Notes under the pieces: model-generated
Seen by the model: the letters and a program-made list of their open reading frames with translations, nothing else
The model's database searches: none
Told to the model about the DNA's origin: nothing
Part shown: positions 29,702 to 63,520 of the stretch, one piece after another
Numbering within the stretch: the first letter of the stretch is position 1
Layout of the letters: every line of letters begins with the position of its first letter
Virus record (IMG/VR): IMGVR_UViG_3300030099_001508
Location: 2,646 to 66,645 of that record
Length of the DNA: 64,000 nt
Strand: one strand, 5' to 3'
DNA from: a virus
Translations under genes and position numbers: made by a program

Positions 29702-30694
29702 ATGTTAATTGAAGATGATATTAAACTTGACTACTCAGATGTACTAATTAGACCCAAAAGGTCAACAATGAATTCTAGAAGTGATGTTTCTATGAAACGC
29801 ACTCATACTTTCCTACACTCTAAAAAATCTTGGACTGGTATTCCTATAATGTCAGCAAATATGGATACTGTAGGAACACCAGCTATGCACAGTATTTTAT
29901 CTAAGTTTGATATGATTACTTGTCCAGCTAAACATTATCTCAAAAACAATATTATAACTTTCAACAGTGGAAATAAAAATATATGCTGGTTCGGAGGTAT
30001 CAATGATACTGATTTGTTATCAAAACAAACCTCTGATTTTATTGGACTAGACGTTGCAAATGGATATACTATTCGTTTTGTTGACGCAGTAAAAGAACTA
30101 AGAGAAAAGTGTCCAGATGCAACAATTGTTGCTGGTAATGTAGTAACTGCTGATATGACCCAAGAACTAATTCTTGCTGGTGCAGATATTGTAAAGGTTG
30201 GTATTGGCCCTGGCTCTGTTTGTACAACAAGAATAAAAACTGGTATTGGATATCCACAACTTAGTGCAGTTATAGAATGTGCAGATGCAGCTCATGGTTT
30301 GGGTGGACATATCATTGCAGATGGTGGTTGTACTACTTCTGGAGATATTGTAAAAGCATTTGCTGGTGGTGCAGACTTTGTAATGATTGGTGGGATGTTA
30401 GCAGGACATGATGAATGTGATGGACAAGTTGAAAATGGTGTCATGAAGTTTTACGGTATGGCATCTGAATCTGCAATGGATAGACACGGTAATCATAATG
30501 AGTATCGTGGTGTAGAAGGAAAAACTGTAGAAGTTCCTTATCGTGGTAAAGTAGAAGATACAGTAAAAGATATATTAAGTGGAGTTCGTTCTGCTTGCAC
30601 ATATGTTGGTGCGAGAAGACTAAAAGCACTTTCTAAATGTACAACATTTGTTCGTGTGAACAATACACATAACACTGTTTACGGAAACGCATGA
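29702..30694 (+). CDS. guaC: GMP reductase
   Basis: [47 protein letters not shown]. Confidence 0.93.
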
Positions 30695-30725
30695 CAGTAT
30701 TGCGTTTTTAAAATGGGTTATTAAT

Positions 30726-30733
30726 TATAAATA
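30726..30733 (+). promoter_or_regulatory. T4 late promoter
   Basis: TATAAATA upstream of the 30781-31433 pair. Confidence 0.7.
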
Positions 30734-30780
30734 GTAATGTAGTTTAAATCAAAACTACTATTTCGGAAAAGGAGACTATA

Positions 30781-31017
30781 ATGTCAGTAGCAAGCGCTGT
30801 GTATGAGCGTACTTGTCATGTGTGTGATGCAGTAAGATTATACTTTCAAAGAGCAATTATCCAAATGCAAAGAGGCAGACAGTTAAGTGCGAACAATAAA
30901 ATAATGCACGATTTAAGATGGGAGTATCCCCATAATGGAGATTTGAGATATCATTTGAATGAAATGAATGATAGAACAAATGCAGAGTATGATAAAAAAC
31001 TAGAGGAGTTAAAATGA
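30781..31017 (+). CDS. hypothetical protein
   Basis: AGGAG RBS; CxxC. Confidence 0.65.
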   Translation: MSVASAVYERTCHVCDAVRLYFQRAIIQMQRGRQLSANNKIMHDLRWEYPHNGDLRYHLNEMNDRTNAEYDKKLEELK

Positions 31018-31433
31018 TTAGATTATTTACAATATTATTTGTTATGCTTTCAACTTCTGTATATGCAGAAGATATGACGATTGAAATGTTGAATAAACGA
31101 GATGACGGTGCAAAGATGGTTTATTCAGAAGATATAGCCAGAGTAGATGTGGGTGACACAATTACTTGGGTGCCAACCAGTAAAGGACATAATGTCCAGT
31201 TTGTAACTGTACCAGAGGGTGTAGAAAAAATCAAAAGTAAGAATAACAAAGAGGTTTCTTTTACTTTTGAAAAAGAAGGTGTATATCTTTACGTTTGCAC
31301 TCCCCATAAAGGCATGGGTATGATTGCACTTGTAATAGTGGGTGATTCGCTAGAAAACCTTGATTCGGTCAAAAAGACCAAAATGATGGGTAAATCTAAG
31401 AAAAAACTGAAAAAACTAGTAAAAAATCTATAA
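31014..31433 (+). CDS. pseudoazurin-like blue copper protein with signal peptide
   Basis: Signal peptide ending VYA; IEMLNK...MVY; GHN and CTPHKGMGM type-1 Cu ligands. Confidence 0.9.
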   Translation: MIRLFTILFVMLSTSVYAEDMTIEMLNKRDDGAKMVYSEDIARVDVGDTITWVPTSKGHNVQFVTVPEGVEKIKSKNNKEVSFTFEKEGVYLYVCTPHKGMGMIALVIVGDSLENLDSVKKTKMMGKSKKKLKKLVKNL

Positions 31434-31443
31434 TTAATAAATT

Positions 31444-31471
31444 AAACCCTTGATTTTCAAGGGTTTTTTTT
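31444..31471 (+). terminator. intrinsic terminator
   Basis: AAACCCTTGA-TTT-TCAAGGGTTT followed by T run. Confidence 0.8.
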
Positions 31472-31494
31472 AGCCTATTTTTCCCAAAAAAGAC

Positions 31495-31523
31495 TTGACT
31501 CTGTTCTCAAAACAAGATATACT
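31495..31523 (+). promoter_or_regulatory. sigma70-type early promoter
   Basis: TTGACT-N17-TATACT. Confidence 0.75.
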
Positions 31524-31554
31524 CTAAGAGTAAGATAAAGAGAAAGAGGTAAAA

Positions 31555-31761
31555 ATGAGTAAAATTAAGAACTACATGATGGATATCGAAGAGAAGGTCT
31601 TTGATATTGAAGGTCTTGAAACCAAGATTGGTGAGTGTGAACATATCGCAGAGATGAAAGCCTTTGTGGTAGAGAAGTTGGGTTTGACAACTCATTTCGA
31701 TATCGGTATCGCAGAAGGTGTGGTAGACGATATGTGGAATGATTTTTGGGGGTACTATTAA
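31555..31761 (+). CDS. small early hypothetical protein
   Basis: GAAAGAGGT RBS, MSKIKNYMMD start. Confidence 0.7.
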   Translation: MSKIKNYMMDIEEKVFDIEGLETKIGECEHIAEMKAFVVEKLGLTTHFDIGIAEGVVDDMWNDFWGYY

Positions 31762-31768
31762 AAAGTGC

Positions 31769-31797
31769 TTGACATTGTTGTCACAACATGGTAGAAT
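31769..31797 (+). promoter_or_regulatory. sigma70-type early promoter
   Basis: TTGACA-N17-TAGAAT. Confidence 0.75.
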
Positions 31798-31825
31798 GAT
31801 AATATAATTGAGAGAGAGGTAAATT

Positions 31826-32074
31826 ATGAAAATCGCAAAAAACATCAAAGACATTGAATTCAACGACACAAATGTGTATGGTACTTGGATGCCAGTATCA
31901 GAACCAATCGTGATGGCTTCTGCCGCTGGGTGGTATGTCGGTTCGGTCTGTAAAGACCCAGATTGTGGTGGTATGATTGTGCCTTACAATAGGTATACTG
32001 ATTACATGACACAAGAGAATGCTCAAAAGTGTCTTGATACACCAATGGAACAAGGAGGCTTTTATGAAGGATAA
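31826..32074 (+). CDS. small early hypothetical protein
   Basis: GAGAGAGAGGT RBS; SAAGWYVG...PYNRYTDY. Confidence 0.7.
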   Translation: MKIAKNIKDIEFNDTNVYGTWMPVSEPIVMASAAGWYVGSVCKDPDCGGMIVPYNRYTDYMTQENAQKCLDTPMEQGGFYEG

Positions 32075-32267
32075 AAAGTATATCGTTTATACTCAAGCGA
32101 ATAAGTTGGGTTTGAAAGGTGAGTTTGATAATGCAAAAGATGCTATCAAATGGGCAAAAGAAAATGTGTATGCTTTCGATTACTTGAAAGAGAGAAAGGA
32201 TACATGGGAGATTTTGTTTGAAGAACTATTAGTCTGGATTGGGAAAGGAGAAATAATCGAATGTTAG
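32064..32267 (+). CDS. small hypothetical protein
   Basis: AGGAGG RBS before MKDKK. Confidence 0.55.
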   Translation: MKDKKYIVYTQANKLGLKGEFDNAKDAIKWAKENVYAFDYLKERKDTWEILFEELLVWIGKGEIIEC

Positions 32268-32590
32268 ACTTTTTAGCGTGTGATTCAGTAAACATCAACA
32301 TGACTAGTTTACAAGGAAAAATCACCACCACCTACGATAAGTTAGTTGAGGTGTTTGGTGAACCAACTATGACAGATGCAAGTCCTTATGAAAAGGTCAA
32401 TGCACAATGGGCAATAGAGTTCAAAGTTCCTTTTACAGATGATACTGGAATAGAAGACTTTGAAACTGTAACTGCTACTGTTTACAATTGGAAAGATGGA
32501 TATATTCCTACTGAAAAGTATGATTGGCACATTGGTGGTTTCGATAGTGAAGCTGTAGATTGTGTTGAAAAAGTACTTGACTCTGCGTAG
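32261..32590 (+). CDS. hypothetical protein
   Basis: YDKLVEVFGEP...TVYNWK...WHIGG. Confidence 0.7.
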   Translation: MLDFLACDSVNINMTSLQGKITTTYDKLVEVFGEPTMTDASPYEKVNAQWAIEFKVPFTDDTGIEDFETVTATVYNWKDGYIPTEKYDWHIGGFDSEAVDCVEKVLDSA

Positions 32591-32611
32591 ACTTTCTGAT
32601 AGGATAACATA

Positions 32612-32743
32612 ATGTTGAAATTTATCTTAGGGATAATTGTAGGTTTTGTGATAGTATCATATTACCCACAAATAATAGTACATACCACTGATTTAATAAA
32701 AAACAGTGGAGTATGTGAACAAATATACAAACTAAATAACTAG
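32612..32743 (+). CDS. 43-aa membrane peptide (not in ORF track), likely leaderless
   Basis: MLKFILGIIVGFVIVSYYPQ...; ATG just after TTGACT-N17-TAGGAT (32577-32605). Confidence 0.5.
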   Translation: MLKFILGIIVGFVIVSYYPQIIVHTTDLIKNSGVCEQIYKLNN

Positions 32744-32753
32744 AAGGAGCTTT

Positions 32754-33050
32754 ATGAGATACAAGTATAATAATAGAAACTTTCATAGAAAGAAAGACAA
32801 GTATCCAAAAGATGAAGGTATGACCGTAACGGTTCGACAAGTTAAGAATAAAGACGGTACTACTACATCTGATGTAAATGGTGCTATAAGAGTTCTTAAA
32901 AAGAAACTAATGAAAGATGGTTTTTTCCAAGAACTTAGAGAAAGGTCTTACTTCACAAGTAAGGGTGAAAAACGTAGAAAGGCAAAAGCTGCTGGAAGAC
33001 GTAGATATCTCAAAAAAGTTGAAAAAAGAAAAGCGGAGTTAGGATATTGA
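32754..33050 (+). CDS. rpsU: phage-encoded ribosomal protein bS21
   Basis: VTVR...DVNGAIRVLKKKLMKDGFFQELRERSYFTSKGEKRRKAKAAGRRR. Confidence 0.88.
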   Translation: MRYKYNNRNFHRKKDKYPKDEGMTVTVRQVKNKDGTTTSDVNGAIRVLKKKLMKDGFFQELRERSYFTSKGEKRRKAKAAGRRRYLKKVEKRKAELGY

Positions 33051-33448
33051 GCGATAATGTCATAGAATTTCCAGTTAAATTTAAAGGTCAAAAAAAGATA
33101 CCAATCATTGATGATTTAGATGCTGTTAAAATGAAAGAAGATTTAGATTTCTGTGATAATCTTGCAGAAGGTCTAATGATTAATCTGATTCATAATGTAG
33201 GTGAAAATGGTTTTGATATTAAGAAGGATAGATTTATAGGTGACATAAGTTTCCTCAATGAAGTAGTTAGAGGAGCTCTATATAGACAAATGGGATTTTC
33301 ACATCCCATGCAAAGTTTTATGGACTTGGTTGTTAAAACTGAATTGAATGAAGAAGATAAAACTATAGTGACAAAAGTGAATTTACATAAGATTGACGAT
33401 TTAATTCCTCAATCGAAAGATGATGGTAACGGAGATGATATTAGTTGA
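33047..33448 (+). CDS. hypothetical protein
   Basis: DNVIEFP start, HPMQ motif. Confidence 0.65.
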   Translation: MSDNVIEFPVKFKGQKKIPIIDDLDAVKMKEDLDFCDNLAEGLMINLIHNVGENGFDIKKDRFIGDISFLNEVVRGALYRQMGFSHPMQSFMDLVVKTELNEEDKTIVTKVNLHKIDDLIPQSKDDGNGDDIS

Positions 33449-34289
33449 TATGAACCAAGTGACACTATCTAATCTGATGGTGCAAATTGGTGGACGAAAA
33501 GAAATAGAACCAGACTTAGTTAGACATATGGTTCTGAATTCTCTTAGAGGATATCGTAGTAGATTCTCTGGTGAGTATGGTGAACTTGTGCTTTGTTATG
33601 ATGACAAAACTAATTGGAGAAGGGATGTATTCCCTAACTACAAACATAGTCGTAGAAAAGATAGAAAAGCATCTAAATTAGATTGGAATTCTATCTTTGA
33701 TACTTTACATTTAATTCGTGATGAATTGAATGAATTTTTCCCATATAAAGTATTGCAAGTAGAAAACGCAGAGGCTGATGATATCATTGCATCTATTGTT
33801 TTTCATGTTGCAAAAGAACCAAAGAATTATGAAAAGGTATTGATACTCTCTGGAGACAAGGATTTTATTCAACTACAACAACATAACTTTGTATCGCAAT
33901 ATAGTCCAACTCAAAAGAAATTTATCAACGGTGTAGACCCTACTACATATATTAAGACGCATATACTTCAAGGTGATAGAAGTGATGGTGTTCCAAACTT
34001 TTTATCACCAGATAATACTTTTGTAGATGAACTAAGGCAAAGGCCTATCTCAAAAAGAAAACTTGCGACTTGGATTGAATTGAACCCAGAAGATTTCTGT
34101 AATGAAGATATGATGAGAAATATTCACAGAAACAGAACTCTAATAGACCTCAATTACATTCCAGAAGAATTAGTGAACAAGTGTATTCAAACTTATTTGA
34201 ATATGCCTGACGGAGATAGAAAACAACTACTAAATTATTTTATCAAGTATAAACTTAAAAACTTAATGGAGAATATTGGAGATTTCTAA
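33420..34289 (+). CDS. rnh: T4 RNase H / 5'-3' exonuclease
   Basis: ILVD, WRRDVFPNYK, EADDII, SGDKDFIQL, GDRSDGVPN. Confidence 0.95.
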   Translation: MMVTEMILVDMNQVTLSNLMVQIGGRKEIEPDLVRHMVLNSLRGYRSRFSGEYGELVLCYDDKTNWRRDVFPNYKHSRRKDRKASKLDWNSIFDTLHLIRDELNEFFPYKVLQVENAEADDIIASIVFHVAKEPKNYEKVLILSGDKDFIQLQQHNFVSQYSPTQKKFINGVDPTTYIKTHILQGDRSDGVPNFLSPDNTFVDELRQRPISKRKLATWIELNPEDFCNEDMMRNIHRNRTLIDLNYIPEELVNKCIQTYLNMPDGDRKQLLNYFIKYKLKNLMENIGDF

Positions 34290-34756
34290 TGGCAGTTAAA
34301 ACATATACACCACTTTTGTCAGAAGTTTTGACAAAGGTGAATAACGCAAAAACTAAAGATAAAAAGATTGCAGTTCTAAAAGAACACGATAGTGAAGCTC
34401 TTAGAATGGTAATAAAGTCTTCTTTTGACCCAAAAATTAAATGGGTCTTACCAGAAGGCTCTGTTCCTTTTAAACCTAATGAGGCGCCAGAGGGAACGGA
34501 ACATACGCTTCTTTCTCAAGAAGCAAGACGATTATATCACTTTATTGAGGGTGCAGATAATCAAACACCTAGAATGAAAAAGGAAACTATGTTCATTCAA
34601 ATGTTAGAAGGATTGCATCATTCAGAAGCAGAAGTTATTTGTCATGCAAAAGATAAAGTTCTGCATCAAAAGTACAAAGGTCTGTCAGACAATGTTGTGA
34701 AAACAGCGTTTGGTTGGAATGATGATTATGTGAGACTTGACTCTGTACAAAAATAG
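34289..34756 (+). CDS. conserved T4-like hypothetical protein
   Basis: LPEGSVPF...ETMFIQMLEGLH; typical rnh neighbour. Confidence 0.75.
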   Translation: MAVKTYTPLLSEVLTKVNNAKTKDKKIAVLKEHDSEALRMVIKSSFDPKIKWVLPEGSVPFKPNEAPEGTEHTLLSQEARRLYHFIEGADNQTPRMKKETMFIQMLEGLHHSEAEVICHAKDKVLHQKYKGLSDNVVKTAFGWNDDYVRLDSVQK

Positions 34757-34765
34757 TGTTATAAC
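34737..34765 (+). promoter_or_regulatory. sigma70 promoter with extended -10, driving the sRNA
   Basis: TTGACT-N14-TG-N-TATAAC. Confidence 0.7.
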
Positions 34766-34771
34766 TGTAAT

Positions 34772-34863
34772 ACGATTCGAGATATGGTAACCTCTCACTC
34801 TCTCTCTCAAAGACCATATGCGAATCACACTAGGGGGTAGTTGTGGCTACCCCCTCTTTTTTA
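34772..34863 (+). ncRNA. candidate small RNA: hairpin with 24-nt CU-rich loop plus terminator hairpin
   Basis: GATTCG/CGAATC and ATATGGT/ACCATAT stem, loop AACCTCTCACTCTCTCTCTCAAAG, then terminator; no credible ORF. Confidence 0.7.
34832..34863 (+). terminator. intrinsic terminator
   Basis: AGGGGGTAG...CTACCCCCT followed by CTTTTTT. Confidence 0.85.
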
Positions 34864-34957
34864 TTTCCCAAAACCCTTGATTTATAAGGAAAAAAATAAT
34901 GCTTGACTTTACTATTGAAATAGTATAGCTTGAAGGTATAGTCAGAAAGAGAGAAAT

Positions 34958-35383
34958 ATGAACATAGTTGAAGTAAATGGTGGAAACAAAGTGCAGAGAG
35001 AAATCTGTCATAAAGTTGTTAGTCATATGATTAAAAAGTTACTTCCTAAATTTAGAACTTTAGATATTACTGTTAATTTAGTCACTATCAAAAGTGATGC
35101 GATTGGATTTTGCATGATGCAAGATACTAATCGTGAGTTTGAAATAGAACTTGATAAGAAAATAGGTATCAAAGATTTGGTACAAGCATTATGTCATGAA
35201 ATGGTTCATGTTAAACAGTATGCAAGAAATGAAATGAATGATGGTATTGTTAAAGGTCATGCTAGATGGAAGTCTAAAATGATTCCAGAGGATACCAACT
35301 ATTGGGATTTGCCTTGGGAAAAGGAAGCCTATAGAATGGAAAAGAAACTTGCAGATGATGTTTGGGAAAATGGAGTAATTTAG
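34958..35383 (+). CDS. HExxH metallopeptidase-like protein
   Basis: LCHEMVHVKQY...PWEKEAY. Confidence 0.8.
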   Translation: MNIVEVNGGNKVQREICHKVVSHMIKKLLPKFRTLDITVNLVTIKSDAIGFCMMQDTNREFEIELDKKIGIKDLVQALCHEMVHVKQYARNEMNDGIVKGHARWKSKMIPEDTNYWDLPWEKEAYRMEKKLADDVWENGVI

Positions 35384-35386
35384 TAC

Positions 35387-35415
35387 TTGACTTTGTTCTC
35401 AAAACATGGTACTAT
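35387..35415 (+). promoter_or_regulatory. sigma70-type early promoter
   Basis: TTGACT-N17-TACTAT. Confidence 0.7.
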
Positions 35416-35444
35416 GATTCGTAACAATGAGAAAAGAGGTTATT

Positions 35445-35669
35445 ATGAAAATGGCAAAACTGACAGCAGAACAGATTGTTGAGATGCTTGCACGAATGAG
35501 TGATGCAGAGAAGCAGAAAACTGCAAATCTTATGGTGAACAAGTGGTTTCACTTGACAAAGAGTTTTGTGAGTATGGTTGATGCAGAAATGCAAGACCAA
35601 TTCATGAATGAACAGGCAGAAATTTTTGAGATGCAAAAGGCTGCCGAAAACGGAACTAAATTATTTTAA
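35445..35669 (+). CDS. small early hypothetical protein
   Basis: AAGAGGT RBS. Confidence 0.6.
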   Translation: MKMAKLTAEQIVEMLARMSDAEKQKTANLMVNKWFHLTKSFVSMVDAEMQDQFMNEQAEIFEMQKAAENGTKLF

Positions 35670-35680
35670 CGGAGAGAGAA

Positions 35681-36016
35681 ATGACACAAGTTGCTGTAAT
35701 TCATGCTGCTTTTGGTGATACACCACATACAGTAGCATTAGTAGATGCACCAGAGTTGCCATCCTTGAATGAGACTTTGGAGTACGCTTATCGTTGGACT
35801 AACAACGTAATGGGTTCATGGTCTATCAAGAAAGAATTTTTTGAGAACGGTGAACCAAATGGTGATTATAACCCTAACGTCACTGTGATGGCACCTTTAC
35901 ATGAAGGTGGTATGGGTTTACGGTCAACCTCAATGGGTGACCAAATGTTAGTTGGTAACAAGAAGTATGTTGTTGCTATGATGGGATTTGAAACTTTGGA
36001 AGGAGAACCAGTATGA
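35681..36016 (+). CDS. hypothetical protein
   Basis: LEYAYRWTNN...GLRSTSMGD. Confidence 0.7.
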   Translation: MTQVAVIHAAFGDTPHTVALVDAPELPSLNETLEYAYRWTNNVMGSWSIKKEFFENGEPNGDYNPNVTVMAPLHEGGMGLRSTSMGDQMLVGNKKYVVAMMGFETLEGEPV

Positions 36017-36285
36017 CAATTAAAGCTAAAGGTAGACCATCTACTACCGTCATAGACCTAGATGGTTCTCAAGGGAACGCTTTCGTTCTCTTGGGATATG
36101 CAAATGAAACCATGAAGAAAAGTGGGTTTGATAAAGAAACAAAAGATAGAATCTTGAATGAGATGAAATCTGGAGACTATATAAACTTACTGAGAACTTT
36201 TGAAAAGTATTTCGGTAGTGTTTACACACTTCAAACTTCTAATCCAGAATATCTGGATGCGTTTATGGTAGAAAAAAGTGCTTAA
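36013..36285 (+). CDS. hypothetical protein
   Basis: IDLDGSQGNAF...SGDY. Confidence 0.7.
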   Translation: MTIKAKGRPSTTVIDLDGSQGNAFVLLGYANETMKKSGFDKETKDRILNEMKSGDYINLLRTFEKYFGSVYTLQTSNPEYLDAFMVEKSA

Positions 36286-36823
36286 AGAACTATTAACTAC
36301 TTTTGTTGTGTCTGCATCAGCTTCTGGTGTAGACGTAACACCACATGATGTAACACAGTATCTAGACAAACAGGCAACTTGTCTTGCAAAAAATATGTAC
36401 TACGAAGCTCGTAGTCAAGGACTTGCTGGACAACTTGCAGTTAGTCTAGTTGTATTAAATCGTGTAAAAGACGATAGGTATCCTAATACAATCTGTGAGG
36501 TTGTACATCAAGGGCCTGTTAGAGAATCTTGGAAAACTAGAGGTAAGGATGTTCCAGAGCATGAAAGAAAATACTTTCCAATAAAAAACAGATGTCAGTT
36601 TAGCTGGTATTGTGATGGTAAAAGTGATGACCCAAAAGAACCAACAACATACGGTGCATTATATGACATGGCACTTGATTTAGTTTATGGTGATATATCA
36701 GTTGTAGATATAACTGAAGGTGCAACACATTATCATGCAGATTATGTTTATCCTGCTTGGAGAAAAACTAAAACTAAAACAATTGAGATAGAAGACCATA
36801 TATTTTATAGGTGGGAAAAGTAA
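36278..36823 (+). CDS. cell wall hydrolase, SleB/Hydrolase_2 family
   Basis: CLAKNMYYEAR, VVLNRV, CQFSWYCDGK, GATHYHA, HIFY. Confidence 0.92.
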   Translation: MLKELLTTFVVSASASGVDVTPHDVTQYLDKQATCLAKNMYYEARSQGLAGQLAVSLVVLNRVKDDRYPNTICEVVHQGPVRESWKTRGKDVPEHERKYFPIKNRCQFSWYCDGKSDDPKEPTTYGALYDMALDLVYGDISVVDITEGATHYHADYVYPAWRKTKTKTIEIEDHIFYRWEK

Positions 36824-37084
36824 ATGCAAGAGATGTCTAAATTTACAGCTTTTAAGTATCGTACACCAACAGAAGAATATAATGATAAACAAAAAGAAGT
36901 TGTAAATATAGTTAGAGAAATTGTTAAAAAAGTAAAAAAAACATCTACACATTGTTTAGTGATTTATGATAAAGCACAGAAAAAACTAAAGAGAAAAAAG
37001 TTACATGAGGAACTTACTGACCACGAATTACTTGAATTATGTAACGATATGTGGGCAGCTCGTTTATGTGGGATAGAATATTAA
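36824..37084 (+). CDS. hypothetical protein
   Basis: ORF track. Confidence 0.5.
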   Translation: MQEMSKFTAFKYRTPTEEYNDKQKEVVNIVREIVKKVKKTSTHCLVIYDKAQKKLKRKKLHEELTDHELLELCNDMWAARLCGIEY

Positions 37085-37085
37085 T

Positions 37086-37286
37086 ATGGCAATCGGAGTA
37101 ACAAAACATTTATTTGAGTTTACTGGTCTGGTAGGTAAATGTGATAAAGGTCATGTTGTAAAAATTCTTGATAATGGATTTGGATTCTGTCCAGAGTGTA
37201 CAGAAGAGGGTGATTTAAATCACACATTATGGGCACCGCCTGGTTATGTATGTAAGGGTGGTTCTAAACTTGAAGATATTAAATAG
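37086..37286 (+). CDS. small Cys-containing protein
   Basis: C..H...CPEC. Confidence 0.5.
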   Translation: MAIGVTKHLFEFTGLVGKCDKGHVVKILDNGFGFCPECTEEGDLNHTLWAPPGYVCKGGSKLEDIK

Positions 37287-37294
37287 GTGAAAAA

Positions 37295-37549
37295 ATGAAA
37301 TTAAGTGGTTATACAAAAAAATATAATATCAATAATGGAGTTGGATATACATATCAATTTGAAAATGGATATGGTGCATCTATAGTAAAACATGATACAT
37401 CTTATGGTGGAAAACAAGGGCTGTATGAAATCGCAGTACTTGACTCCACTGGAGATTTATGTTACAGTACTCCTATTACTGATGATGTAATCGGTTGGGC
37501 AACCGAAGACAAAGTATTAGACACTTTACATAGGATTAAAATGTTATGA
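37295..37549 (+). CDS. conserved phage hypothetical protein
   Basis: FENGYGASIV...SYGG...GLYEIAVL. Confidence 0.75.
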   Translation: MKLSGYTKKYNINNGVGYTYQFENGYGASIVKHDTSYGGKQGLYEIAVLDSTGDLCYSTPITDDVIGWATEDKVLDTLHRIKML

Positions 37550-38139
37550 ACTTTTTTTATTTAGATGAAGACCCTTGGACTTCTATAGAATATCATTGTG
37601 ACAAACATATAGTCAAGATGCCTACAGAATACAAACAGATGTTGTGTACTGCACATAGAGTTCTTGATGGTGAAATGTACTATGATAAAACTGCAAGAGG
37701 TCATAAGATTAAAAGATGGAGACACCCAGACCGTAAGATGAACAAATATTTGTATCTTGCTGGTCATGTCAATCACCCAACTAATATATGGCTAAGGGAA
37801 TGTCGTGAGAATTATATGTTAATGTTTACCTACTATAAACTCATTTGTGAGGAATATACATATAGGTATGGTAAAGAACATGGTGCAAAAGAAAACTGGT
37901 GGATGTTACGAGAACCACCAAAGAATATGCCTAGTTTAGGAAAGACTACACCAGTACCACAGGCTATGAAAGAGTTTCCACAGTGTATGGTAAAAGGTGA
38001 TACAGTACAAGCATATCGTAATTTTTATGTTGTTGCAAAGAGAAGGTTCGCAACTTGGAAAGAAAGAGGAGCTCCAGTATGGTACAAGAATATGACCCAG
38101 AACCAGAACGGTATTATGATTGGATGCTCTGGAAAATGA
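37546..38139 (+). CDS. pyrimidine-dimer DNA glycosylase-like protein
   Basis: MNFFYLD...HCDKHIVKM..E..QML...HVNHP...AYRNFY. Confidence 0.75.
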   Translation: MNFFYLDEDPWTSIEYHCDKHIVKMPTEYKQMLCTAHRVLDGEMYYDKTARGHKIKRWRHPDRKMNKYLYLAGHVNHPTNIWLRECRENYMLMFTYYKLICEEYTYRYGKEHGAKENWWMLREPPKNMPSLGKTTPVPQAMKEFPQCMVKGDTVQAYRNFYVVAKRRFATWKERGAPVWYKNMTQNQNGIMIGCSGK

Positions 38140-38369
38140 GACAAGAGAGGAAAATAATGTCAGATGACCCACTAGATTCACCTATAGATGATGTTAGTAA
38201 AGATAATCAACTAAGTGGATGGATAGAAAAACCACATATGTCTAGAGAAGAAATGTGGATGAAAGAAGTAGCTGAAATGCAAAAAACAAATCATCAACTG
38301 ATGTTGCGAATTAAAGAACAACGTCAAGAGATTGAAAAATTAAAGAAGAAGATTGATGCCAACTTATAG
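38079..38369 (+). CDS. hypothetical protein
   Basis: YDPEPERYYDWMLW; AGGAG RBS. Confidence 0.55.
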   Translation: MVQEYDPEPERYYDWMLWKMRQERKIMSDDPLDSPIDDVSKDNQLSGWIEKPHMSREEMWMKEVAEMQKTNHQLMLRIKEQRQEIEKLKKKIDANL

Positions 38370-38661
38370 TTTTAAAAATACTGAAACTGGAGAAGAGTTT
38401 GAAGAATTATTTTCCATGTCAGATAGAGAAAAGTTCTTAGAACAAAACCCACATATAAAACAATTACCATCTTTGTTTGCCATGTCATATACTGGCACTG
38501 GTGATAGAATTAAAAATGATAGTGGATGGAAAGACAACCTTTCACGAATTGCAGAAGCACATCCTGGCAGTCCACTTGCATATCGCCACGGCAAGAAGTC
38601 TACAAAGGATATAAATACTAGACAAGTATTGAAGAAACATAAGATTTTGAAGGATGTGTGA
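38353..38661 (+). CDS. FmdB-like small protein (Cys-less)
   Basis: MPTYSFKNTETGEEFE. Confidence 0.7.
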   Translation: MMPTYSFKNTETGEEFEELFSMSDREKFLEQNPHIKQLPSLFAMSYTGTGDRIKNDSGWKDNLSRIAEAHPGSPLAYRHGKKSTKDINTRQVLKKHKILKDV

Positions 38662-39365
38662 TGGCGAAAAAACAAGACGTAAAAATTGATGATTTGGTAA
38701 CTATTAAACCAATCACAGATAATCAAAAAGTTGCCTTTGAGGAATGGAAAAAAAATAATAAAGAATTATTCCTTCATGGAGCCGCTGGAACTGGTAAAAC
38801 TTTTATCTCTTTATATCTTGCACTGGAAAAAGTATTAGACCCAAGTACACCATATCACTGTGTATATCTAATTCGTAGTGCAGTTCCTACAAGAGAGATT
38901 GGTTTCTTGCCGGGCGATGAAGAAGATAAAACTGCATTGTATCAGATACCATATCAAAACATGGTGCAGTTTATGTTTGAACAACCTAGTGACCAAGCAT
39001 TTACAATGTTATACGATAGATTAAAAGCACAAGGCTCTGTTATGTTTTTAACAACATCATATCTGCGTGGTATTACATTAGACAACTCTATTATCATAGT
39101 TGATGAATGTCAAAACTTGAACTTTCATGAACTAGATACAATCATGACAAGAGTTGGTCAAGATTCCAAAATTATTTTCTCTGGTGATTTCTTCCAATCT
39201 GATTTAACTAAAAGTGCAGACAAAGATGGTATGCCTAGATTTTTAGATATCATTTCGGAAATGGAAGAATTTGCTTCAGTAGAATTTAATATTGGTGATA
39301 TTGTTCGTTCTGGTTTGGTACGAAGTTATCTAATCAGTAAAACAAAAAAAGGAGTTGAAGTATAA
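38658..39365 (+). CDS. phoH: PhoH-like ATPase
   Basis: GAAGTGKT, IGFLPG, YLRGITL, VDECQN, DIVRSGLV. Confidence 0.95.
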   Translation: MMAKKQDVKIDDLVTIKPITDNQKVAFEEWKKNNKELFLHGAAGTGKTFISLYLALEKVLDPSTPYHCVYLIRSAVPTREIGFLPGDEEDKTALYQIPYQNMVQFMFEQPSDQAFTMLYDRLKAQGSVMFLTTSYLRGITLDNSIIIVDECQNLNFHELDTIMTRVGQDSKIIFSGDFFQSDLTKSADKDGMPRFLDIISEMEEFASVEFNIGDIVRSGLVRSYLISKTKKGVEV

Positions 39366-39499
39366 TGGCTAAAATGTTTTCAACTACAATCCATGAACCC
39401 ACTAAGAAGGGAACTTCTATGGGCAAGAAACCTATAACTTCTACAATGAATAAACATAAAAGACGAAGTTATAAAAAGTATAGAGGACAAGGTAAATGA
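39365..39499 (+). CDS. 44-aa basic peptide ending KKYRGQGK (not in ORF track)
   Basis: Hand translation MAKMFSTTIHEPTKKGTSMGKKPITSTMNKHKRRSYKKYRGQGK. Confidence 0.65.
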   Translation: MAKMFSTTIHEPTKKGTSMGKKPITSTMNKHKRRSYKKYRGQGK

Positions 39500-40023
39500 T
39501 AAACAAAGAATACAATCGTTGTTTAGAGATGATTTTACATCATGAAGGCGGATATGTAAATCATCCAGATGACCCAGGCGGCGAAACTAACTTAGGCGTG
39601 ACTAAGAAAGTTTATGATGCGTATTGTAAAAGTAATGGTATTAGACCAAAATCTATGAGAGATTTAGAAGTGTTAGATGTTGCACCTATCTATAAAACCG
39701 AATATTGGGATAGAGTAAAAGGTGATGACCTTCACCCAGCACTCGCACTTTGCATTTTCGATTTTGGTGTTAACGCTGGAACTGGAAGAGCTGCAAAGTT
39801 TATTCAGAAGATTGTTGGTACAGCAGTTGATGGTGGTATCGGCCCCAACTCACTTAAAAAGATTGATGCGTATGTTGAAAAACATGGTATTGAAAATGTT
39901 GTCAAAACATATCAATCAGACAGACAAAAGTATTATGAAAAGTTGAAACACTTCAAAACCTTTGGTCGTGGTTGGACACGAAGAGTTAACGAAACTACAG
40001 AAGCTGCACTACAACTTATTTGA
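39496..40023 (+). CDS. GH108 lysozyme/endolysin with PG-binding domain
   Basis: HEGGYVNHPDDPGGETNLGVT, FDFGVNAG, FGRGWTRRV. Confidence 0.93.
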   Translation: MINKEYNRCLEMILHHEGGYVNHPDDPGGETNLGVTKKVYDAYCKSNGIRPKSMRDLEVLDVAPIYKTEYWDRVKGDDLHPALALCIFDFGVNAGTGRAAKFIQKIVGTAVDGGIGPNSLKKIDAYVEKHGIENVVKTYQSDRQKYYEKLKHFKTFGRGWTRRVNETTEAALQLI

Positions 40024-41367: not shown

Positions 41368-41793
41368 ATGTACGAGTACAAATGTAAAATGGTTAGAGTG
41401 GTTGATGGAGATACAGTTGATGTAGACATTGACTTGGGGTTCGGTGTTTGGATGCGAAATCAACGTATCCGAATGTATGGTATTGATACACCAGAATCTA
41501 GAACATCTGACAAAGTAGAAAAAAAATATGGAAAAGCTGCGGCCGCATTTTTAACAAAATGGACAAATGCTGGTGACCTTACCTTGAAAACATTCAAAGA
41601 TGATAGAGGTAAGTTTGGACGTATTTTGGGTGAACTTTGGTTTGGTGGTGAACACAATATCAATCAACTCTTAGTAGATAATCATCATGCAGTTCGTTAT
41701 CATGGACAATCTAAAGAAGAGATTAAAGAAGAGCATCTTGCAAACAGAGAAAAATTACATTTAGACCAAATGAAAAATGCACTTGACTATTAA
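41368..41793 (+). CDS. thermonuclease (SNase-like)
   Basis: RVVDGDTVD, RMYGIDTPE, GKFGRILG. Confidence 0.9.
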   Translation: MYEYKCKMVRVVDGDTVDVDIDLGFGVWMRNQRIRMYGIDTPESRTSDKVEKKYGKAAAAFLTKWTNAGDLTLKTFKDDRGKFGRILGELWFGGEHNINQLLVDNHHAVRYHGQSKEEIKEEHLANREKLHLDQMKNALDY

Positions 41794-41813
41794 GAGTGTT
41801 TGTGGTATAAATA
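41783..41813 (+). promoter_or_regulatory. overlapping sigma70 and T4 late promoter for tmRNA
   Basis: TTGACT-N17-TATAAA, where the -10 is also TATAAATA. Confidence 0.75.
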
Positions 41814-41819
41814 GAATCA

Positions 41820-42075
41820 CAATTTGTTGATACAAATCGAAGACTGGGCAGGACATGGGGGCAGTACCCATCACCTCCACCATAACTAAACCTCGATTGA
41901 GGGGGTGAACTAGGTTCGACTGACAGAGATAGAGGCGAGTAGAATTGTCGGATGACTGCGTGATAGGTCAAAACTGTAAATGCAAACGATAACTTTGCGC
42001 CTGTTGATTATGCTCTCGCAGCCTAATTAAACTGAGTTTTGATGGTGTACTTGGAAACAGAAACACCATCACCAG
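41820..42075 (+). ncRNA. ssrA: circularly permuted (two-piece) tmRNA
   Basis: T-arm ATGGG-GGCAGTA-CCCAT and CACCTCC-ACCA (to 41882) precede GGGGGTG...GGTTCGAC (41901); G3:U70 pair; tag ORF 41982-42026 ANDNFAPVDYALAA*. Confidence 0.93.
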
Positions 42076-42098
42076 ATTATAAATTAGTGGAGAAAAGT

Positions 42099-42446
42099 AT
42101 GAGACAATGGATATATGATTGCTGGAACGGTGTGATGGATGCAGAGACTAATCCACTAAGACACATCCCTCATTTACAAACTAGACATATGATATTACAA
42201 ATACTTGCATGGGTATGGTGTGCTACATTTGCTCAACTCATAGGTAGTTGGTATGTTTTTGGTTTTAGTGCAATTGCTCATGTCATTTTATTAGCAACAA
42301 TCGTACTCACAGTGGCTACATTTGAAACTGCAAAACGAAGACCTACATTTTTTCTAAGAGGTGGATATCATACACCAAGTCGTGCTAGAACCATTTGGGT
42401 AAATGGTAAAAAAATAGAAGACCCATATGGTGGAGAACACGAATGA
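42099..42446 (+). CDS. two-TM membrane hypothetical protein
   Basis: GGAG RBS before MRQW; NPLRHIP...QILAWVW. Confidence 0.7.
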   Translation: MRQWIYDCWNGVMDAETNPLRHIPHLQTRHMILQILAWVWCATFAQLIGSWYVFGFSAIAHVILLATIVLTVATFETAKRRPTFFLRGGYHTPSRARTIWVNGKKIEDPYGGEHE

Positions 42447-46036: not shown

Positions 46037-46069
46037 GAAGGGAGAGTAGAAATACTCTCCCTTTTTTTT
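46037..46069 (+). terminator. intrinsic terminator
   Basis: AAGGGAGAGTA-GAAA-TACTCTCCCTT followed by T run. Confidence 0.88.
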
Positions 46070-46100
46070 GTACCTAAGACTCATTCTTAATTCTGGTTCT

Positions 46101-46108
46101 TATAAATA
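46101..46108 (+). promoter_or_regulatory. T4 late promoter
   Basis: TATAAATA. Confidence 0.7.
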
Positions 46109-46135
46109 GAGATAAGAGAGTGAGAGGTACTACTA

Positions 46136-46612
46136 ATGATTGAAATCGTAGCAGCCGTGTCAGCGGCAACTGGAGCATTTAACACCATTAAAGCAGGATT
46201 TGCAGCCGGCCGAGAAGTTGAATCTATGGCAAGTGACTTATCACGCTGGATGGGTGCAGTTTCAGATATTAAAAAAGCAGACGAATATAATAAAAAACCG
46301 CCCTTATTTAAGAAGCTCTTTAATGCTGGTTCAGTAGAAGAAGAGGCTATGCAAATCTTCATGGCTAAGAAAAAAGCAGAAGATATGAGAAATGAACTGA
46401 AACAGATAATCTCATTTACAAGAGGCCCATCTGCTTGGGAAGAGCTCTTGCGTACAGAAGCCGATATTCGTAAGAAAAGGCAACAGGCGATTTATGACCA
46501 ACAAGAAAGACGTAAACAAATCTTAGAATGGATTGCAATCGGTGTTTTAGTACTGGTTGTTGGTGGATTTGTATTTGGTCTACTCTGGTTATGGTTAAAC
46601 AGAGGTTATTAA
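46136..46612 (+). CDS. hypothetical protein with C-terminal TM
   Basis: AFNTIKAGF..GRE.ESM..DL.RW...GSVEEEA. Confidence 0.7.
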   Translation: MIEIVAAVSAATGAFNTIKAGFAAGREVESMASDLSRWMGAVSDIKKADEYNKKPPLFKKLFNAGSVEEEAMQIFMAKKKAEDMRNELKQIISFTRGPSAWEELLRTEADIRKKRQQAIYDQQERRKQILEWIAIGVLVLVVGGFVFGLLWLWLNRGY

Positions 46613-56548: not shown

Positions 56549-56580
56549 TTGACTTTGCTATAGGAAGTGTGTATTATAAT
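56549..56580 (+). promoter_or_regulatory. sigma70-type early promoter
   Basis: TTGACT-N17-TATTAT (overlapping TATAAT). Confidence 0.7.
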
Positions 56581-56607
56581 AGTATAGTCAAGAGAAAGAG
56601 AGAAAAC

Positions 56608-56847
56608 ATGACAGAGACAATTTTCATTGATGCAATCGAAGGTGCGAAAGTCGCCGTGTTCAAAGGTGCTGGTAATATGATTGGTACTGCAAAAGACGCT
56701 AAGATGCTTGCATACATTCTAGATACTCACAAAATCTTTGGTGAGGTTATGTTCTGTAGCACTATGGATTTTGCAACCGAAGCTGGTTTCGCAGATGACG
56801 GTGATGCAAGAAAGTTATTCGATAACGCAGTTGCAATGAGAGGTTAA
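56608..56847 (+). CDS. early hypothetical protein
   Basis: GAGAAAGAGAG RBS before MTETIF; STMDFATEAGF. Confidence 0.65.
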   Translation: MTETIFIDAIEGAKVAVFKGAGNMIGTAKDAKMLAYILDTHKIFGEVMFCSTMDFATEAGFADDGDARKLFDNAVAMRG

Positions 56848-63349: not shown

Positions 63350-63520
63350 CTCTATGTAGACTGAGATAAAGGATAAGAATATATGCTAAAGCTAATACTT
63401 CTGATATTGATTCTCTGGGTACTTACAGTACCTTTAGCGTTTATATTATATGCTTGACATTGAGAGTATTTTGTGTTAGCTTGATTCTATAATGAGAGTT
63501 TAACTATAGAGAGGTTTGTT

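What the first reader, a model, noticed from the sequence alone, without database searches (positions are those of the whole stretch)
34737..34866. Undescribed phage small RNA whose CU-rich loop is antisense to the RBS of multiple phage genes
Seen: a self-contained unit of extended -10 promoter (34737-34765), a 13-bp interrupted stem presenting the loop AACCUCUCACUCUCUCUCUCAAAG (34789-34812), and a strong terminator (34832-34863). The loop region is perfectly complementary to several RBSs: AGAGAGTGAGAGGT at 46115-46128 (14/14, gene 46136), TTGAGAGAGAG at 31808-31818 (11/11, gene 31826), TGAGAGGTTA at 56837-56846 (10/10, gene 56850) and GAGAGGTT at 63509-63516 (8/8, gene 63521). Partial matches lie before 31555, 34958, 35681, 56608 and 57536. 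Established: alphaproteobacterial sRNAs such as AbcR and CcsR/cuckoo repress via loop-displayed anti-SD motifs. Inference: a trans-acting, multi-target translational switch shutting off a GA-RBS regulon (and perhaps host mRNAs), an RNA analogue of T4 RegA; alternatively a decoy for S1/bS21. Caveat: the loop is low-complexity, so short matches are individually weak.
Basis: partly seen in the sequence, partly recalled or inferred. Interest (0 to 1): 0.9.

Follow-up and report, generated by a model that had tools for sequence, protein, structure and literature searches.

The report
Phage small RNA masks late-gene leader
An uncultured marine T4-type phage carries a conserved gene for a small RNA of about 90 bases whose exposed CU-rich loop matches the ribosome-binding leader of one of the phage's own late genes, so it probably controls that gene's translation.

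Summary
At 34737-34865 lie a sigma-70-type promoter with an extended -10, a 13-bp interrupted stem with a 24-nt CU-rich loop, and a strong terminator.

The unit recurs in at least 16 distinct variants in related IMG/VR phage contigs. The stems covary, while the loop core ACCUCUCACUCUCUC never changes. It matches no Rfam family, and its small reading frame is not kept.

The loop's best partner in the whole window is the leader of gene 46136 (14/14, Shine-Dalgarno included), a late gene behind TATAAATA. That site is kept in 25 of the 27 closest homologues, changing mostly A to G (G.U-compatible). It is the top hit in 4 of 4 contigs that hold both genes. A second target, early gene 31826, carries the same GUGAG signature in relatives.

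The proposed wide "GA-RBS regulon" is not supported: 44 of 300 shuffled loops match as many start regions.

Most likely this is a base-pairing translational repressor of one or two phage mRNAs. No transcript has been shown.

This scan met the same RNA family before on other DNA (note e1-5792573, Melnitz-type phages). My searches found no paper describing it.

The parts
34737..34765 (+). Promoter of the small RNA. TTGACT (34737-34742), 17-nt spacer ending TGT (extended -10), TATAAC (34760-34765).
   Evidence: TTGACT and TG-n-TA are kept in all 13 variants. The site is not listed by the tool scan, because its -10 ends in C.
34772..34863 (+). Predicted small RNA of about 90 nt. The start is inferred from the promoter and the end from the terminator.
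   Evidence: Fold. Covariance model R1 matches 34769-34865 at 84.7 bits. No transcript ends have been measured.
34774..34826 (+). Interrupted 13-bp stem (GAUUCG/CGAAUC outer, AUAUGGU/ACCAUAU inner) that encloses the loop.
   Evidence: In one search, 98.9% of cells are paired, 4 pairs have changes on both sides, and 0 of 500 shuffles reach the covariation score.
34789..34812 (+). 24-nt single-stranded loop AACCUCUCACUCUCUCUCUCAAAG. The core ACCUCUCACUCUCUC is invariant in relatives.
34832..34865 (+). Intrinsic terminator. 10-bp G+C-rich hairpin followed by CTTTTTTATT.
   Evidence: The stem covaries (GC/AU/GU at one pair).
46101..46108 (+). T4-type late promoter element TATAAATA of the main target gene.
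   Evidence: TATAAATA or CATAAATA is kept in all 21 distinct leaders. The late-promoter motif is as used in PMC9004378 (Methods passage).
46115..46128 (+). Main target site AGAGAGUGAGAGGU, complementary 14/14 to the loop. It covers the Shine-Dalgarno sequence and lies at the predicted 5' end of the late mRNA.
46136..46612 (+). Target gene. 158-aa protein of unknown function (phrog_32327) with a hydrophobic C-terminal segment, just downstream of the gp32-like SSB gene (45109-45990).
31808..31818 (+). Second site UUGAGAGAGAG (11/11) in the leader of early gene 31826-32074. Relatives carry GAGAGAGUGAGG here.
31826..32074 (+). Second candidate target gene. 82 aa, no family, behind the early-type promoter at 31769-31797.
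56837..56846 (+). Weak site (10-mer) before gene 56850. Not distinguishable from chance.
   Evidence: expected 0.22. One search gives -13.7 kcal/mol.
63509..63516 (+). Weak site (8-mer) before gene 63521. At chance level.
   Evidence: expected 1.54.

Best explanation
34772-34863 is a stand-alone gene for a non-coding RNA of about 90 nt in a T4-type marine phage (pelagimyophage/Melnitz-like).

Proposed mechanism:
- Host RNA polymerase transcribes it from a sigma-70-type promoter with an extended -10, that is, early in infection. Transcription ends at an intrinsic terminator.
- A stem holds out a 24-nt CU-rich loop.
- The loop pairs with AGAGAGUGAGAGGU in the very short leader of the late mRNA of gene 46136, covering its Shine-Dalgarno sequence, and so blocks or delays translation of that membrane-anchored late protein.
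- A second, weaker target is the leader of early gene 31826.

Shown here: the anatomy, the conservation and covariation of the RNA, the complementarity, its statistical specificity, and the conservation of both target sites.

Inferred: that the RNA is made, that the two RNAs pair in the cell, and that pairing represses rather than stabilises the mRNA.
For: RNA anatomy and conservation:
- Promoter, stem-loop and terminator are as described.
- There are 13 distinct variants. Seven of the 80 loci fetched through the neighbouring DUF6433 protein, without reference to the loop, match model R1 at 84 bits or more and carry the same loop core. Three further variants came from R1 searches of contigs chosen through another protein.
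- Stems covary while the core ACCUCUCACUCUCUC is constant.
- There is no Rfam match, at gathering score for the whole window or up to E = 10 for 34600-35000.
- The small ORF changes frame in 3 of 11 variants.

Main target (gene 46136):
- The best non-self duplex of the loop in the whole window, on both strands, is the 46136 leader: -31 kcal/mol against -26.7 for the next.
- Among 110 start regions it scores -26.5, and 0 of 300 shuffled loops do as well.
- In 4 of 4 contigs that hold both this RNA type and the homologous gene, that leader is again the top hit.
- The site is kept in 25 of the 27 closest homologues while its flanks and the first codons vary.
- In leaders that keep the site, the changes are A to G at three positions, which keeps a G.U pair, plus one G to T.
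- One such leader (two A to G changes) lies in the same contig as an unchanged loop (G004).

Second target (gene 31826):
- All 12 contigs that hold both this RNA (R1 at 81 bits or more) and a 31826 homologue have a start-region duplex of -19 kcal/mol or better.
- Most of them read GAGAGAGUGAGG, which repeats the GUGAG signature.
- Four of the 5 exact GAGAGTGAG occurrences outside the RNA gene in the four contigs sit before start codons. The fifth lies 4 nt before an ATG, too close to be a Shine-Dalgarno.
Against: - No transcript has been shown. RNA-library contigs cover the region but run on into the upstream gene, and contigs cannot show ends, strand or level.
- Nine contigs carry divergent CU-loop RNAs of the wider family (G006, G007, G008, G009, G010, G013, G014, G055 and the complete Melnitz genome). 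In none does a target stand out. The pairing is therefore shown for one clade only, and no change in the loop is matched by a compensating change in a target.
- Two intragenic sites in the window reach -26.7 kcal/mol.
- An early RNA acting on a late mRNA needs the RNA to persist, which is untested.
- The direction of the effect (repression or stabilisation) is inferred only from the Shine-Dalgarno lying inside the duplex.
- Part of the variant set came from an exact search for the loop. That subset cannot speak to loop invariance.
Confidence: 0.62

Rival explanations
1. It is a general anti-Shine-Dalgarno RNA. The CU repeat binds many GA-rich ribosome-binding sites of early genes and perhaps host mRNAs, shutting off a whole class. 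Alternatively it titrates a ribosomal component such as S1.
For: - Genes directly behind TTGAC-type promoters in the window tend to have GA-repeat leaders such as AGAGAAAGAGAG.
- Start regions are about 3-fold enriched over intragenic windows at <= -12 kcal/mol: 10 of 110 against 111 of 3631.
- The wider family keeps CU-repeat loops with differing interruptions: 44 of 80 loci by my own criterion.
Against: - Shuffled loops of the same composition bind as many start regions (44 of 300 shuffles at <= -12, 43 of 300 at <= -14). The enrichment follows from the loop being pyrimidine-rich.
- Most phage genes here use GGAG-type sites.
- A generic repeat would not need the invariant CUCAC interruption or its matching GUGAG in two conserved leaders.
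- No test of protein binding was possible.
Confidence: 0.15
2. The direction is reversed. The abundant late leader of 46136 acts as a sponge that soaks up the early RNA, so that late in infection the RNA's real targets (early gene 31826, other early genes or host mRNAs) are released. Alternatively, pairing at the 5' end protects the late mRNA from decay and so activates it.
For: - The site sits at the predicted 5' end of a very short leader.
- The RNA's promoter is of the early type and the target's promoter of the late type.
- A second conserved site lies in an early gene.
Against: The Shine-Dalgarno sequence lies inside the duplex, which in known cases usually blocks initiation (established knowledge, not tested here). 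Nothing here measures RNA levels or decay.
Confidence: 0.12
3. It is not a trans-acting RNA. The hairpin and terminator would be the structured 3' end of the upstream DUF6433 mRNA, or a protein-binding or DNA-level element, and the complementarity to leaders would be a by-product of low-complexity sequence.
For: - RNA-library contigs join the region to the upstream ORF (records 12, 17 and 22).
- The loop is low-complexity.
- Four of 19 exact 18-mer hits in viral contigs are unrelated CT tracts.
Against: - The -35 box and TG-n-TA are conserved in all 13 variants although the end of the ORF diverges.
- The 14-mer is expected 0.01 times by chance.
- Two target sites are conserved independently and share the irregular GUGAG.
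- In relatives L035 and L063 the equivalent hairpin is followed within 5 nt by a tRNA-Gly gene, which fits a stable processed RNA.
Confidence: 0.08
4. The unit encodes a micropeptide (MVTSHSLSQRPYANHTRG, starting at 34785).
For: An ATG-initiated frame of 12 to 19 codons reading MV(K)TSHSLSQ is present in 8 of 11 distinct variants.
Against: - The CU tract is read in another frame in 3 of 11 variants, and the lengths and C-termini differ.
- There is no Shine-Dalgarno sequence ahead of it, and the ATG lies inside the stem.
- The pattern of conservation fits RNA pairing.
Confidence: 0.03

Closest known systems
Example: Methylophilales phage Melnitz, MZ577097.1 38541-38640, annotated as hypothetical CDS MelnitzEXVC044M_66.
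   Same: - TTGAC-type promoter, long stem, large CU-repeat loop (ACCUCUCUCUCGACUUUCUCUCUCA) and terminator.
- Same neighbourhood downstream of the DUF6433 gene.
- Weak match to model R1 (21.8 bits, E = 0.012).
   Different: - Unrelated stem sequence and a different loop interruption.
- No outstanding target in the complete Melnitz genome.
- The window's clade has its own loop (CUCAC) and an identified conserved late-gene target.
Pyrimidine-rich-loop, Shine-Dalgarno-masking sRNAs of Alphaproteobacteria (AbcR1/2, CcsR/cuckoo). Names and features are recalled, not from a call.
   Same: A hairpin loop displays a C/U-rich motif that pairs with the ribosome-binding site of target mRNAs in trans.
   Different: - No Rfam family matches, even at E up to 10.
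- It is phage-encoded, with a single hairpin plus terminator.
- The motif is a CU repeat with a CUCAC interruption rather than CCUCC or CUCCCA.
- The best target is the phage's own late gene.
Antisense RNAs of temperate phages that block the ribosome-binding site of a phage gene: c4 of P1/P7 (named in review PMC12197685, passage seen) and sar of P22 (recalled).
   Same: A phage RNA that pairs with the ribosome-binding region of the phage's own mRNA to set the timing of expression.
   Different: - Those RNAs serve immunity or lysogeny in temperate phages and are encoded in or opposite the target operon.
- This one lies 11 kb from its target in a T4-type (presumably virulent) phage.
- It has no Rfam match.
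T4 RNAC and RNAD, small RNAs from the T4 tRNA region with unknown roles (PMC3014915, passage seen).
   Same: - Small stable RNAs of T4-type phages.
- In relatives L035 and L063 the CU-loop hairpin directly precedes a tRNA-Gly gene.
   Different: - No tRNA gene lies in this window.
- This unit has its own promoter and terminator.
T4 RegA (translational repressor protein) and RegB (nuclease cutting GGAG in early Shine-Dalgarno sequences). RegB is described in PMC3014915 (passage seen). RegA is recalled.
   Same: Post-transcriptional control acting at ribosome-binding sites of a T4-type phage's own mRNAs.
   Different: Those are proteins acting on many early mRNAs. This is an RNA with one or two specific targets, the best of them a late mRNA.

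Membership tests
Any Rfam 15 family (including AbcR, cuckoo/CcsR, C4 antisense RNA, IMES and other marine or phage motifs, as far as they are in the library) | Covariance-model match at or near the family's gathering score | tested here: not met
   (whole window, gathering) finds only the tmRNA models at 41779-42073. (34600-35000, E up to 10) gives a best hit of DUF2815 RNA at 19.2 bits against a gathering score of 41.2, and that hit lies on the terminator, not the loop.
CU-repeat-loop sRNA family of pelagimyophage/Melnitz-like phages (uncatalogued; earlier scan note e1-5792573) | Own sigma-70-type promoter, stem of variable sequence, large CU-repeat loop, then a terminator or a tRNA | tested here: met
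   Window. Relatives with unrelated stems and similar loops: (44 of 80 loci by my own criterion, which missed L003 and picked up a few doubtful minus-strand hits). Melnitz.
CU-repeat-loop sRNA family of pelagimyophage/Melnitz-like phages | Conserved genomic position downstream of the DUF6433 gene (PF20025) | tested here: met
CU-repeat-loop sRNA family of pelagimyophage/Melnitz-like phages | Sequence or structure homology across the whole family shown by one model | tested here: inconclusive
   R1 scores 81-115 bits within the window's clade but only 15-34 bits, with E from 0.0002 to 1, on the other types. The shared architecture could be homology or convergence.
Base-pairing, Shine-Dalgarno-occluding trans sRNAs (functional class) | Accessible seed complementary to the ribosome-binding region of a target, beyond chance | tested here: met
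Base-pairing, Shine-Dalgarno-occluding trans sRNAs (functional class) | Seed and target site conserved together in relatives | tested here: met
   Only G.U-tolerated changes were seen, and no double compensatory change between loop and target.
Base-pairing, Shine-Dalgarno-occluding trans sRNAs (functional class) | A discrete transcript and a measured effect on target translation | not testable with these tools
   Only assembled contigs of RNA libraries were available.
T4 RNAC/RNAD | Encoded in and processed from the tRNA gene cluster; sequence similarity to the T4 RNAs | not tested
   No tRNA lies in the window. tRNA-Gly adjoins the hairpin in L035 and L063. No T4 sequence was compared.

The most novel reading that the evidence does not exclude
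This would be the first trans-acting riboregulator of T4-type phages. An RNA made early would act as a threshold timer, holding back translation of a late, membrane-anchored protein (possibly linked to lysis or envelope functions) until late mRNA outnumbers it. It would belong to a large family of CU-loop RNAs in globally abundant SAR11/OM43 phages, in which each clade's loop interruption has co-evolved with the leaders of its own targets.
Probability: 0.3. Interest if true: 0.78.

Novelty: new member of a known kind. Interest (0 to 1): 0.62.

Why it matters
- A 2010 review of T4 post-transcriptional control states that no small trans-acting regulatory RNA had been functionally characterised from T4, and that genomes of T4 relatives might suggest candidates (PMC3014915, passage seen).
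- This unit is such a candidate, and it comes with a concrete, conserved, testable target pair: the loop's CUCAC against the leader's GUGAG.
- It occurs in phages related to those infecting SAR11 and OM43, among the most abundant marine bacteria. A relative of the family sits in the cultured phage Melnitz, where it is annotated as a protein gene. That makes experiments possible and shows that such RNAs are being mis-annotated.
- The mechanism itself, masking of a Shine-Dalgarno sequence by a loop, is ordinary.

Tried and rejected
Expression. The look-up of sequencing runs listed 23 runs, 19 of them on record as RNA, from 12 studies. None held half or more of the sampled words. I laid 4 of the 23 (X1, X3, X6, X9), and all four are assembled contigs.
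- X3 record 12 spans 34562-34911.
- X6 record 17 spans 34528-34812.
- X9 record 22 spans 34436-34808.
- These show 90-99% likeness and are continuous with the upstream ORF.
- X1, the closest run, has no contig on 34678-35225.

Contigs cannot show ends, strand or level, and DNA may be present in such libraries, so this is evidence neither for nor against a discrete RNA. The two contigs that end at 34808-34812 stop inside the CU repeat, which is where an assembler would break anyway.

Targets in other clades.
- For nine contigs with divergent CU-loop RNAs (G006, G007, G008, G009, G010, G013, G014, G055, Melnitz) no site stood out.
- One suggestive case did not exceed its background. In G009 the leader AAGUUGAGAGAAAGAGGU of a 66-aa early gene faces the loop ...CUCUCAACU... 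at -22.0 kcal/mol, while the best site there is -22.8. That gene is unrelated to 31826 and 31555.
- Most of these contigs are fragments.

R1 matches near the target gene. R1 on 50 contigs holding homologues of gene 46136 gave only weak matches (22-32 bits). From their coordinates and strand I infer that those checked lie antisense to the target leader and its upstream terminator, so they resemble the RNA without being a second gene. I did not read these sequences.

Function of the 46136 protein. It has no Pfam family and only phrog_32327, of unknown function. The Atlas returned only unnamed viral clusters. Distant homologues occur in Roseobacter phages: one is annotated 'peptidase' about 600 bp upstream of a holin and a glycoside hydrolase, another sits beside the small terminase. 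No function can be assigned.

Literature.
- 'pelagiphage' with 'sRNA' returned 0 papers.
- 'pelagimyophage' or 'small RNA' returned nothing relevant among the 15 listed.
- 'phage-encoded' with 'sRNA' and 'anti-Shine-Dalgarno' returned 1 paper, on a Caulobacter sponge RNA, of which I saw the listing only.
- The Melnitz paper PMC9004378 has 0 occurrences of sRNA, small RNA, noncoding or regulatory RNA.
- In the review PMC12197685 I found no passage on phage T4 or on marine phage sRNAs. Its Table S1 of 38 uncharacterised phage sRNAs is a supplement that I could not see, and it may bear on novelty.

Considered and rejected.
- A micropeptide gene, because the frame is not kept.
- A leader of the downstream gene 34958, because a strong terminator and that gene's own promoter at 34903 intervene.
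Full report
WHAT THE WINDOW IS. The window is bases 2646-66645 of a 66.6-kb IMG/VR viral contig judged 44% complete. Its nearest named relatives at the DNA level are Pelagibacter phage Mosig and Methylophilales phage Melnitz, both T4-type Kyanoviridae. It carries a permuted alphaproteobacterial-type tmRNA, a T4 RNase H-like gene and a gp32-like SSB gene.

THE OBSERVATION.
- TTGACT lies at 34737-34742, followed by a 17-nt spacer ending TGT and then TATAAC at 34760-34765.
- The tool's own promoter scan does not list this site, because its rule requires T at the end of the -10.
- RNA 34772-34866 folds into a 6+7-bp interrupted stem around an unpaired 24-nt loop (34789-34812) and a 10-bp terminator hairpin with a T run. 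The energy is -31 kcal/mol, z = -4.9, and 0 of 200 shuffles fold as well.
- The terminator is the top-ranked one in 30000-40000.
- The four quoted complementary words exist. The 14-mer and the 11-mer are far above chance (expected 0.01 and 0.04). The 10-mer and the 8-mer are not (expected 0.22 and 1.54).

IT IS A CONSERVED, STRUCTURED, NON-CODING UNIT.
- I fetched 80 loci through the upstream protein, a DUF6433 family member. A BLAST of the intergenic DNA then found the unit in close relatives.
- An exact search for 18 nt of the loop gave 19 stretches. Fifteen are this unit and 4 are unrelated CT tracts.
- Together these gave 13 distinct variants. Because part of this set was selected by the loop itself, what matters most is the unbiased part.
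- Seven of the 80 protein-anchored loci match the covariance model R1 at 84 bits or more and share the loop core.
- Three further variants, found by R1 in contigs chosen through a different protein, keep ACCUCUCACUCUCUC with one CU unit fewer. A weaker, fourth form (33.7 bits) shows it inside a quite different stem, GGUGUU/AACACC.
- In the model-fitted alignment 98.9% of pair cells are standard pairs and 4 pairs change on both sides. None of 500 shuffles reaches the covariation score, and every slid register is far worse. The alignment leans towards the model's structure.
- The -35 box and the TG-n-TA element are present in all 13 variants although the end of the upstream ORF diverges.
- No Rfam family matches.
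- A small ATG frame exists, but it reads the CU tract in another frame in 3 of 11 variants and ends at different places.

WHAT THE LOOP FITS.
- I scanned both strands of the window with the loop. Apart from its own antisense, the best site is the leader of gene 46136 at -31 kcal/mol. Two intragenic sites follow at -26.7.
- Among 110 start regions from my own rough gene calls, the 46136 leader scores -26.5 and the 31826 leader -19.2.
- Against 300 composition-preserving shuffles of the loop, the best value is reached by 0 shuffles and the second-best by 2.
- The number of start regions bound at <= -12 kcal/mol (10) is reached by 44 of 300 shuffles, and the mean affinity is no better than for shuffles.
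- So there are one or two specific partners and no class-wide effect. The roughly 3-fold enrichment of start regions over gene interiors (10 of 110 against 111 of 3631) is what any pyrimidine-rich probe gives against Shine-Dalgarno sequences.

THE MAIN TARGET IS A LATE GENE.
- Upstream of 46136 lie a terminator (46040-46070) and TATAAATA at 46101-46108. This is the T4-type late-promoter word as used for Melnitz in PMC9004378 (Methods passage).
- Only 9 exact copies of that word occur in the window.
- From my recollection of T4 late promoters, transcription would start about 6 nt after the octamer. The site AGAGAGUGAGAGGU (46115-46128) would then form the very 5' end of a leader of about 22 nt and include the Shine-Dalgarno sequence.
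- The product is a 158-aa protein of unknown function, with a hydrophobic C-terminal segment, encoded just after the gp32-like gene.

THE TARGET SITE IS CONSERVED WITH THE RNA.
- I examined 77 of 80 homologue loci; 3 were dropped because the match did not begin at residue 1.
- Of the 27 closest, 25 keep a leader that pairs with the window's loop at -26 kcal/mol or better, always behind TATAAATA or CATAAATA.
- Of the other 50, four reach -25.9 and the rest are -20.1 or weaker.
- In the 21 distinct leaders, the block AGAGAGTGAGAGGT is the most conserved part after the promoter word. The spacers on both sides and the first codons vary.
- In leaders that keep the site, the changes are A to G at three positions, each of which leaves a G.U pair with the loop, plus one G to T. 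Two leaders have lost the 5' half of the site.
- In the four contigs that hold both the RNA and the gene (the window, G001, G004, G005), the leader is the top non-self hit each time: -28 to -31 kcal/mol against -19 to -27 for the next site.
- G004 combines an unchanged loop with a leader carrying two A to G changes.

A SECOND CONSERVED SITE.
- Gene 31826 (82 aa, no family) lies behind the early-type promoter at 31769-31797.
- In the window its leader reads UUGAGAGAGAGG. In most close relatives it reads UUGAGAGAGUGAGG, with the same irregular GUGAG that faces the loop's CUCAC.
- I searched 50 of the 80 homologue contigs with R1. Twelve hold the RNA at 81 bits or more, and all 12 have a leader duplex of -19 kcal/mol or better.
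- In the four larger contigs the exact word GAGAGTGAG occurs 5 times outside the RNA gene. Four copies lie before start codons, and the fifth lies 4 nt before an ATG, too close to be a Shine-Dalgarno.

THE WIDER FAMILY.
- More distant relatives of the same locus carry units of the same build but with unrelated stems of 7-16 bp. Their loops read, for example, ACCUCUCUCUCAACUCUCUCUCAA or ACCUCUCUCUCUCAAAUCUCUCUC.
- By my own criterion 44 of 80 loci have one. The criterion missed L003 and picked up a few doubtful minus-strand hits.
- In L035 and L063 the hairpin is followed within 5 nt by tRNA-Gly instead of a terminator. This fits a stable RNA released by tRNA processing and recalls T4 RNAC and RNAD.
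- Melnitz has a member at MZ577097.1 38541-38640, annotated as hypothetical CDS _66.
I confirmed the Melnitz element but not its reported 20-base target.
- In nine contigs with these other loop types I found no outstanding target. The loop-target link is therefore demonstrated for the window's clade only.

EXPRESSION. Only contigs of RNA libraries were available. Three from three studies cover the region, joined to the upstream ORF. This does not show a discrete transcript.

LITERATURE. My searches found no description of this RNA. The Melnitz paper does not mention small RNAs. A T4 review says no trans-acting regulatory RNA had been characterised from T4.

MECHANISM AND VERDICT.
- The most likely reading (about 0.6) is an early-transcribed base-pairing RNA whose loop masks the Shine-Dalgarno sequence and 5' end of the late 46136 mRNA, and more weakly that of 31826.
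- Repression is inferred from the position of the duplex. A sponge or stabilising role for the late leader is the main alternative.
- The kind of regulator is well known. The family, its setting in T4-type marine phages and its target are new.

Noticed in passing
window 31444-31523 and 34872-34931: A hairpin around CCCTTGATTT...AAGGG sits just upstream of a TTGACT early-type promoter. It is found twice in the window and is conserved downstream of the small RNA in all 13 variants. It looks like the promoter-plus-stem-loop cassettes described for T4-type hyperplastic regions (recalled, not checked).
   Followed up: partly
window 31525-31554, 34940-34957, 56575-56607, 63495-63520: Genes placed directly behind TTGAC-type promoters tend to have GA-repeat leaders (AGAGAAAGAGAG), while most other genes use GGAG-type sites. 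The reason is unexplained. It is not accounted for by the small RNA.
   Followed up: partly
window 41779-42117: A permuted two-piece tmRNA (tag ANDNFAPVDYALAA) lies behind both a TTGACT...TATAAA promoter and a TATAAATA word at 41806-41813.
   Followed up: no
L202 2488-2667 (MZ577097.1 38547-38726): Melnitz CDS MelnitzEXVC044M_66 ('hypothetical protein') overlaps a promoter, CU-loop hairpin and terminator unit, and is probably a mis-annotated RNA gene.
   Followed up: partly
L035 3884-4022; L063 3115-3253: In two relatives the CU-loop hairpin is followed within about 5 nt by tRNA-Gly(tcc), with no terminator between them.
   Followed up: partly
G070, G075, G081, G084, G086-G091: Model R1 gives weak matches (22-32 bits) in these contigs. 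In those where I compared coordinates, the match falls antisense to the 46136-type leader and its upstream terminator. I inferred this from coordinates and strand and did not read the sequences. The reverse complement of the target region resembles the RNA, which could hint at an origin by inverted duplication.
   Followed up: no
L230 2501-2977 (Roseobacter phage CRP-701) and L231 2504-2959 (CRP-603): Distant homologues of the 46136 protein occur in Roseobacter phages. One is annotated 'peptidase' and lies about 600 bp upstream of a holin and a glycoside hydrolase. Another lies next to the small terminase gene.
   Followed up: partly
L011 3199-3348, L015, L007, G013 20933-21102, G014 12945-13079: A two-hairpin variant. 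A CU-rich segment (UCCUCUCUCUCAAC) is followed by a second long hairpin closed by the same GAUUCG/CGAAUC stem as the window's RNA, then a terminator.
   Followed up: no
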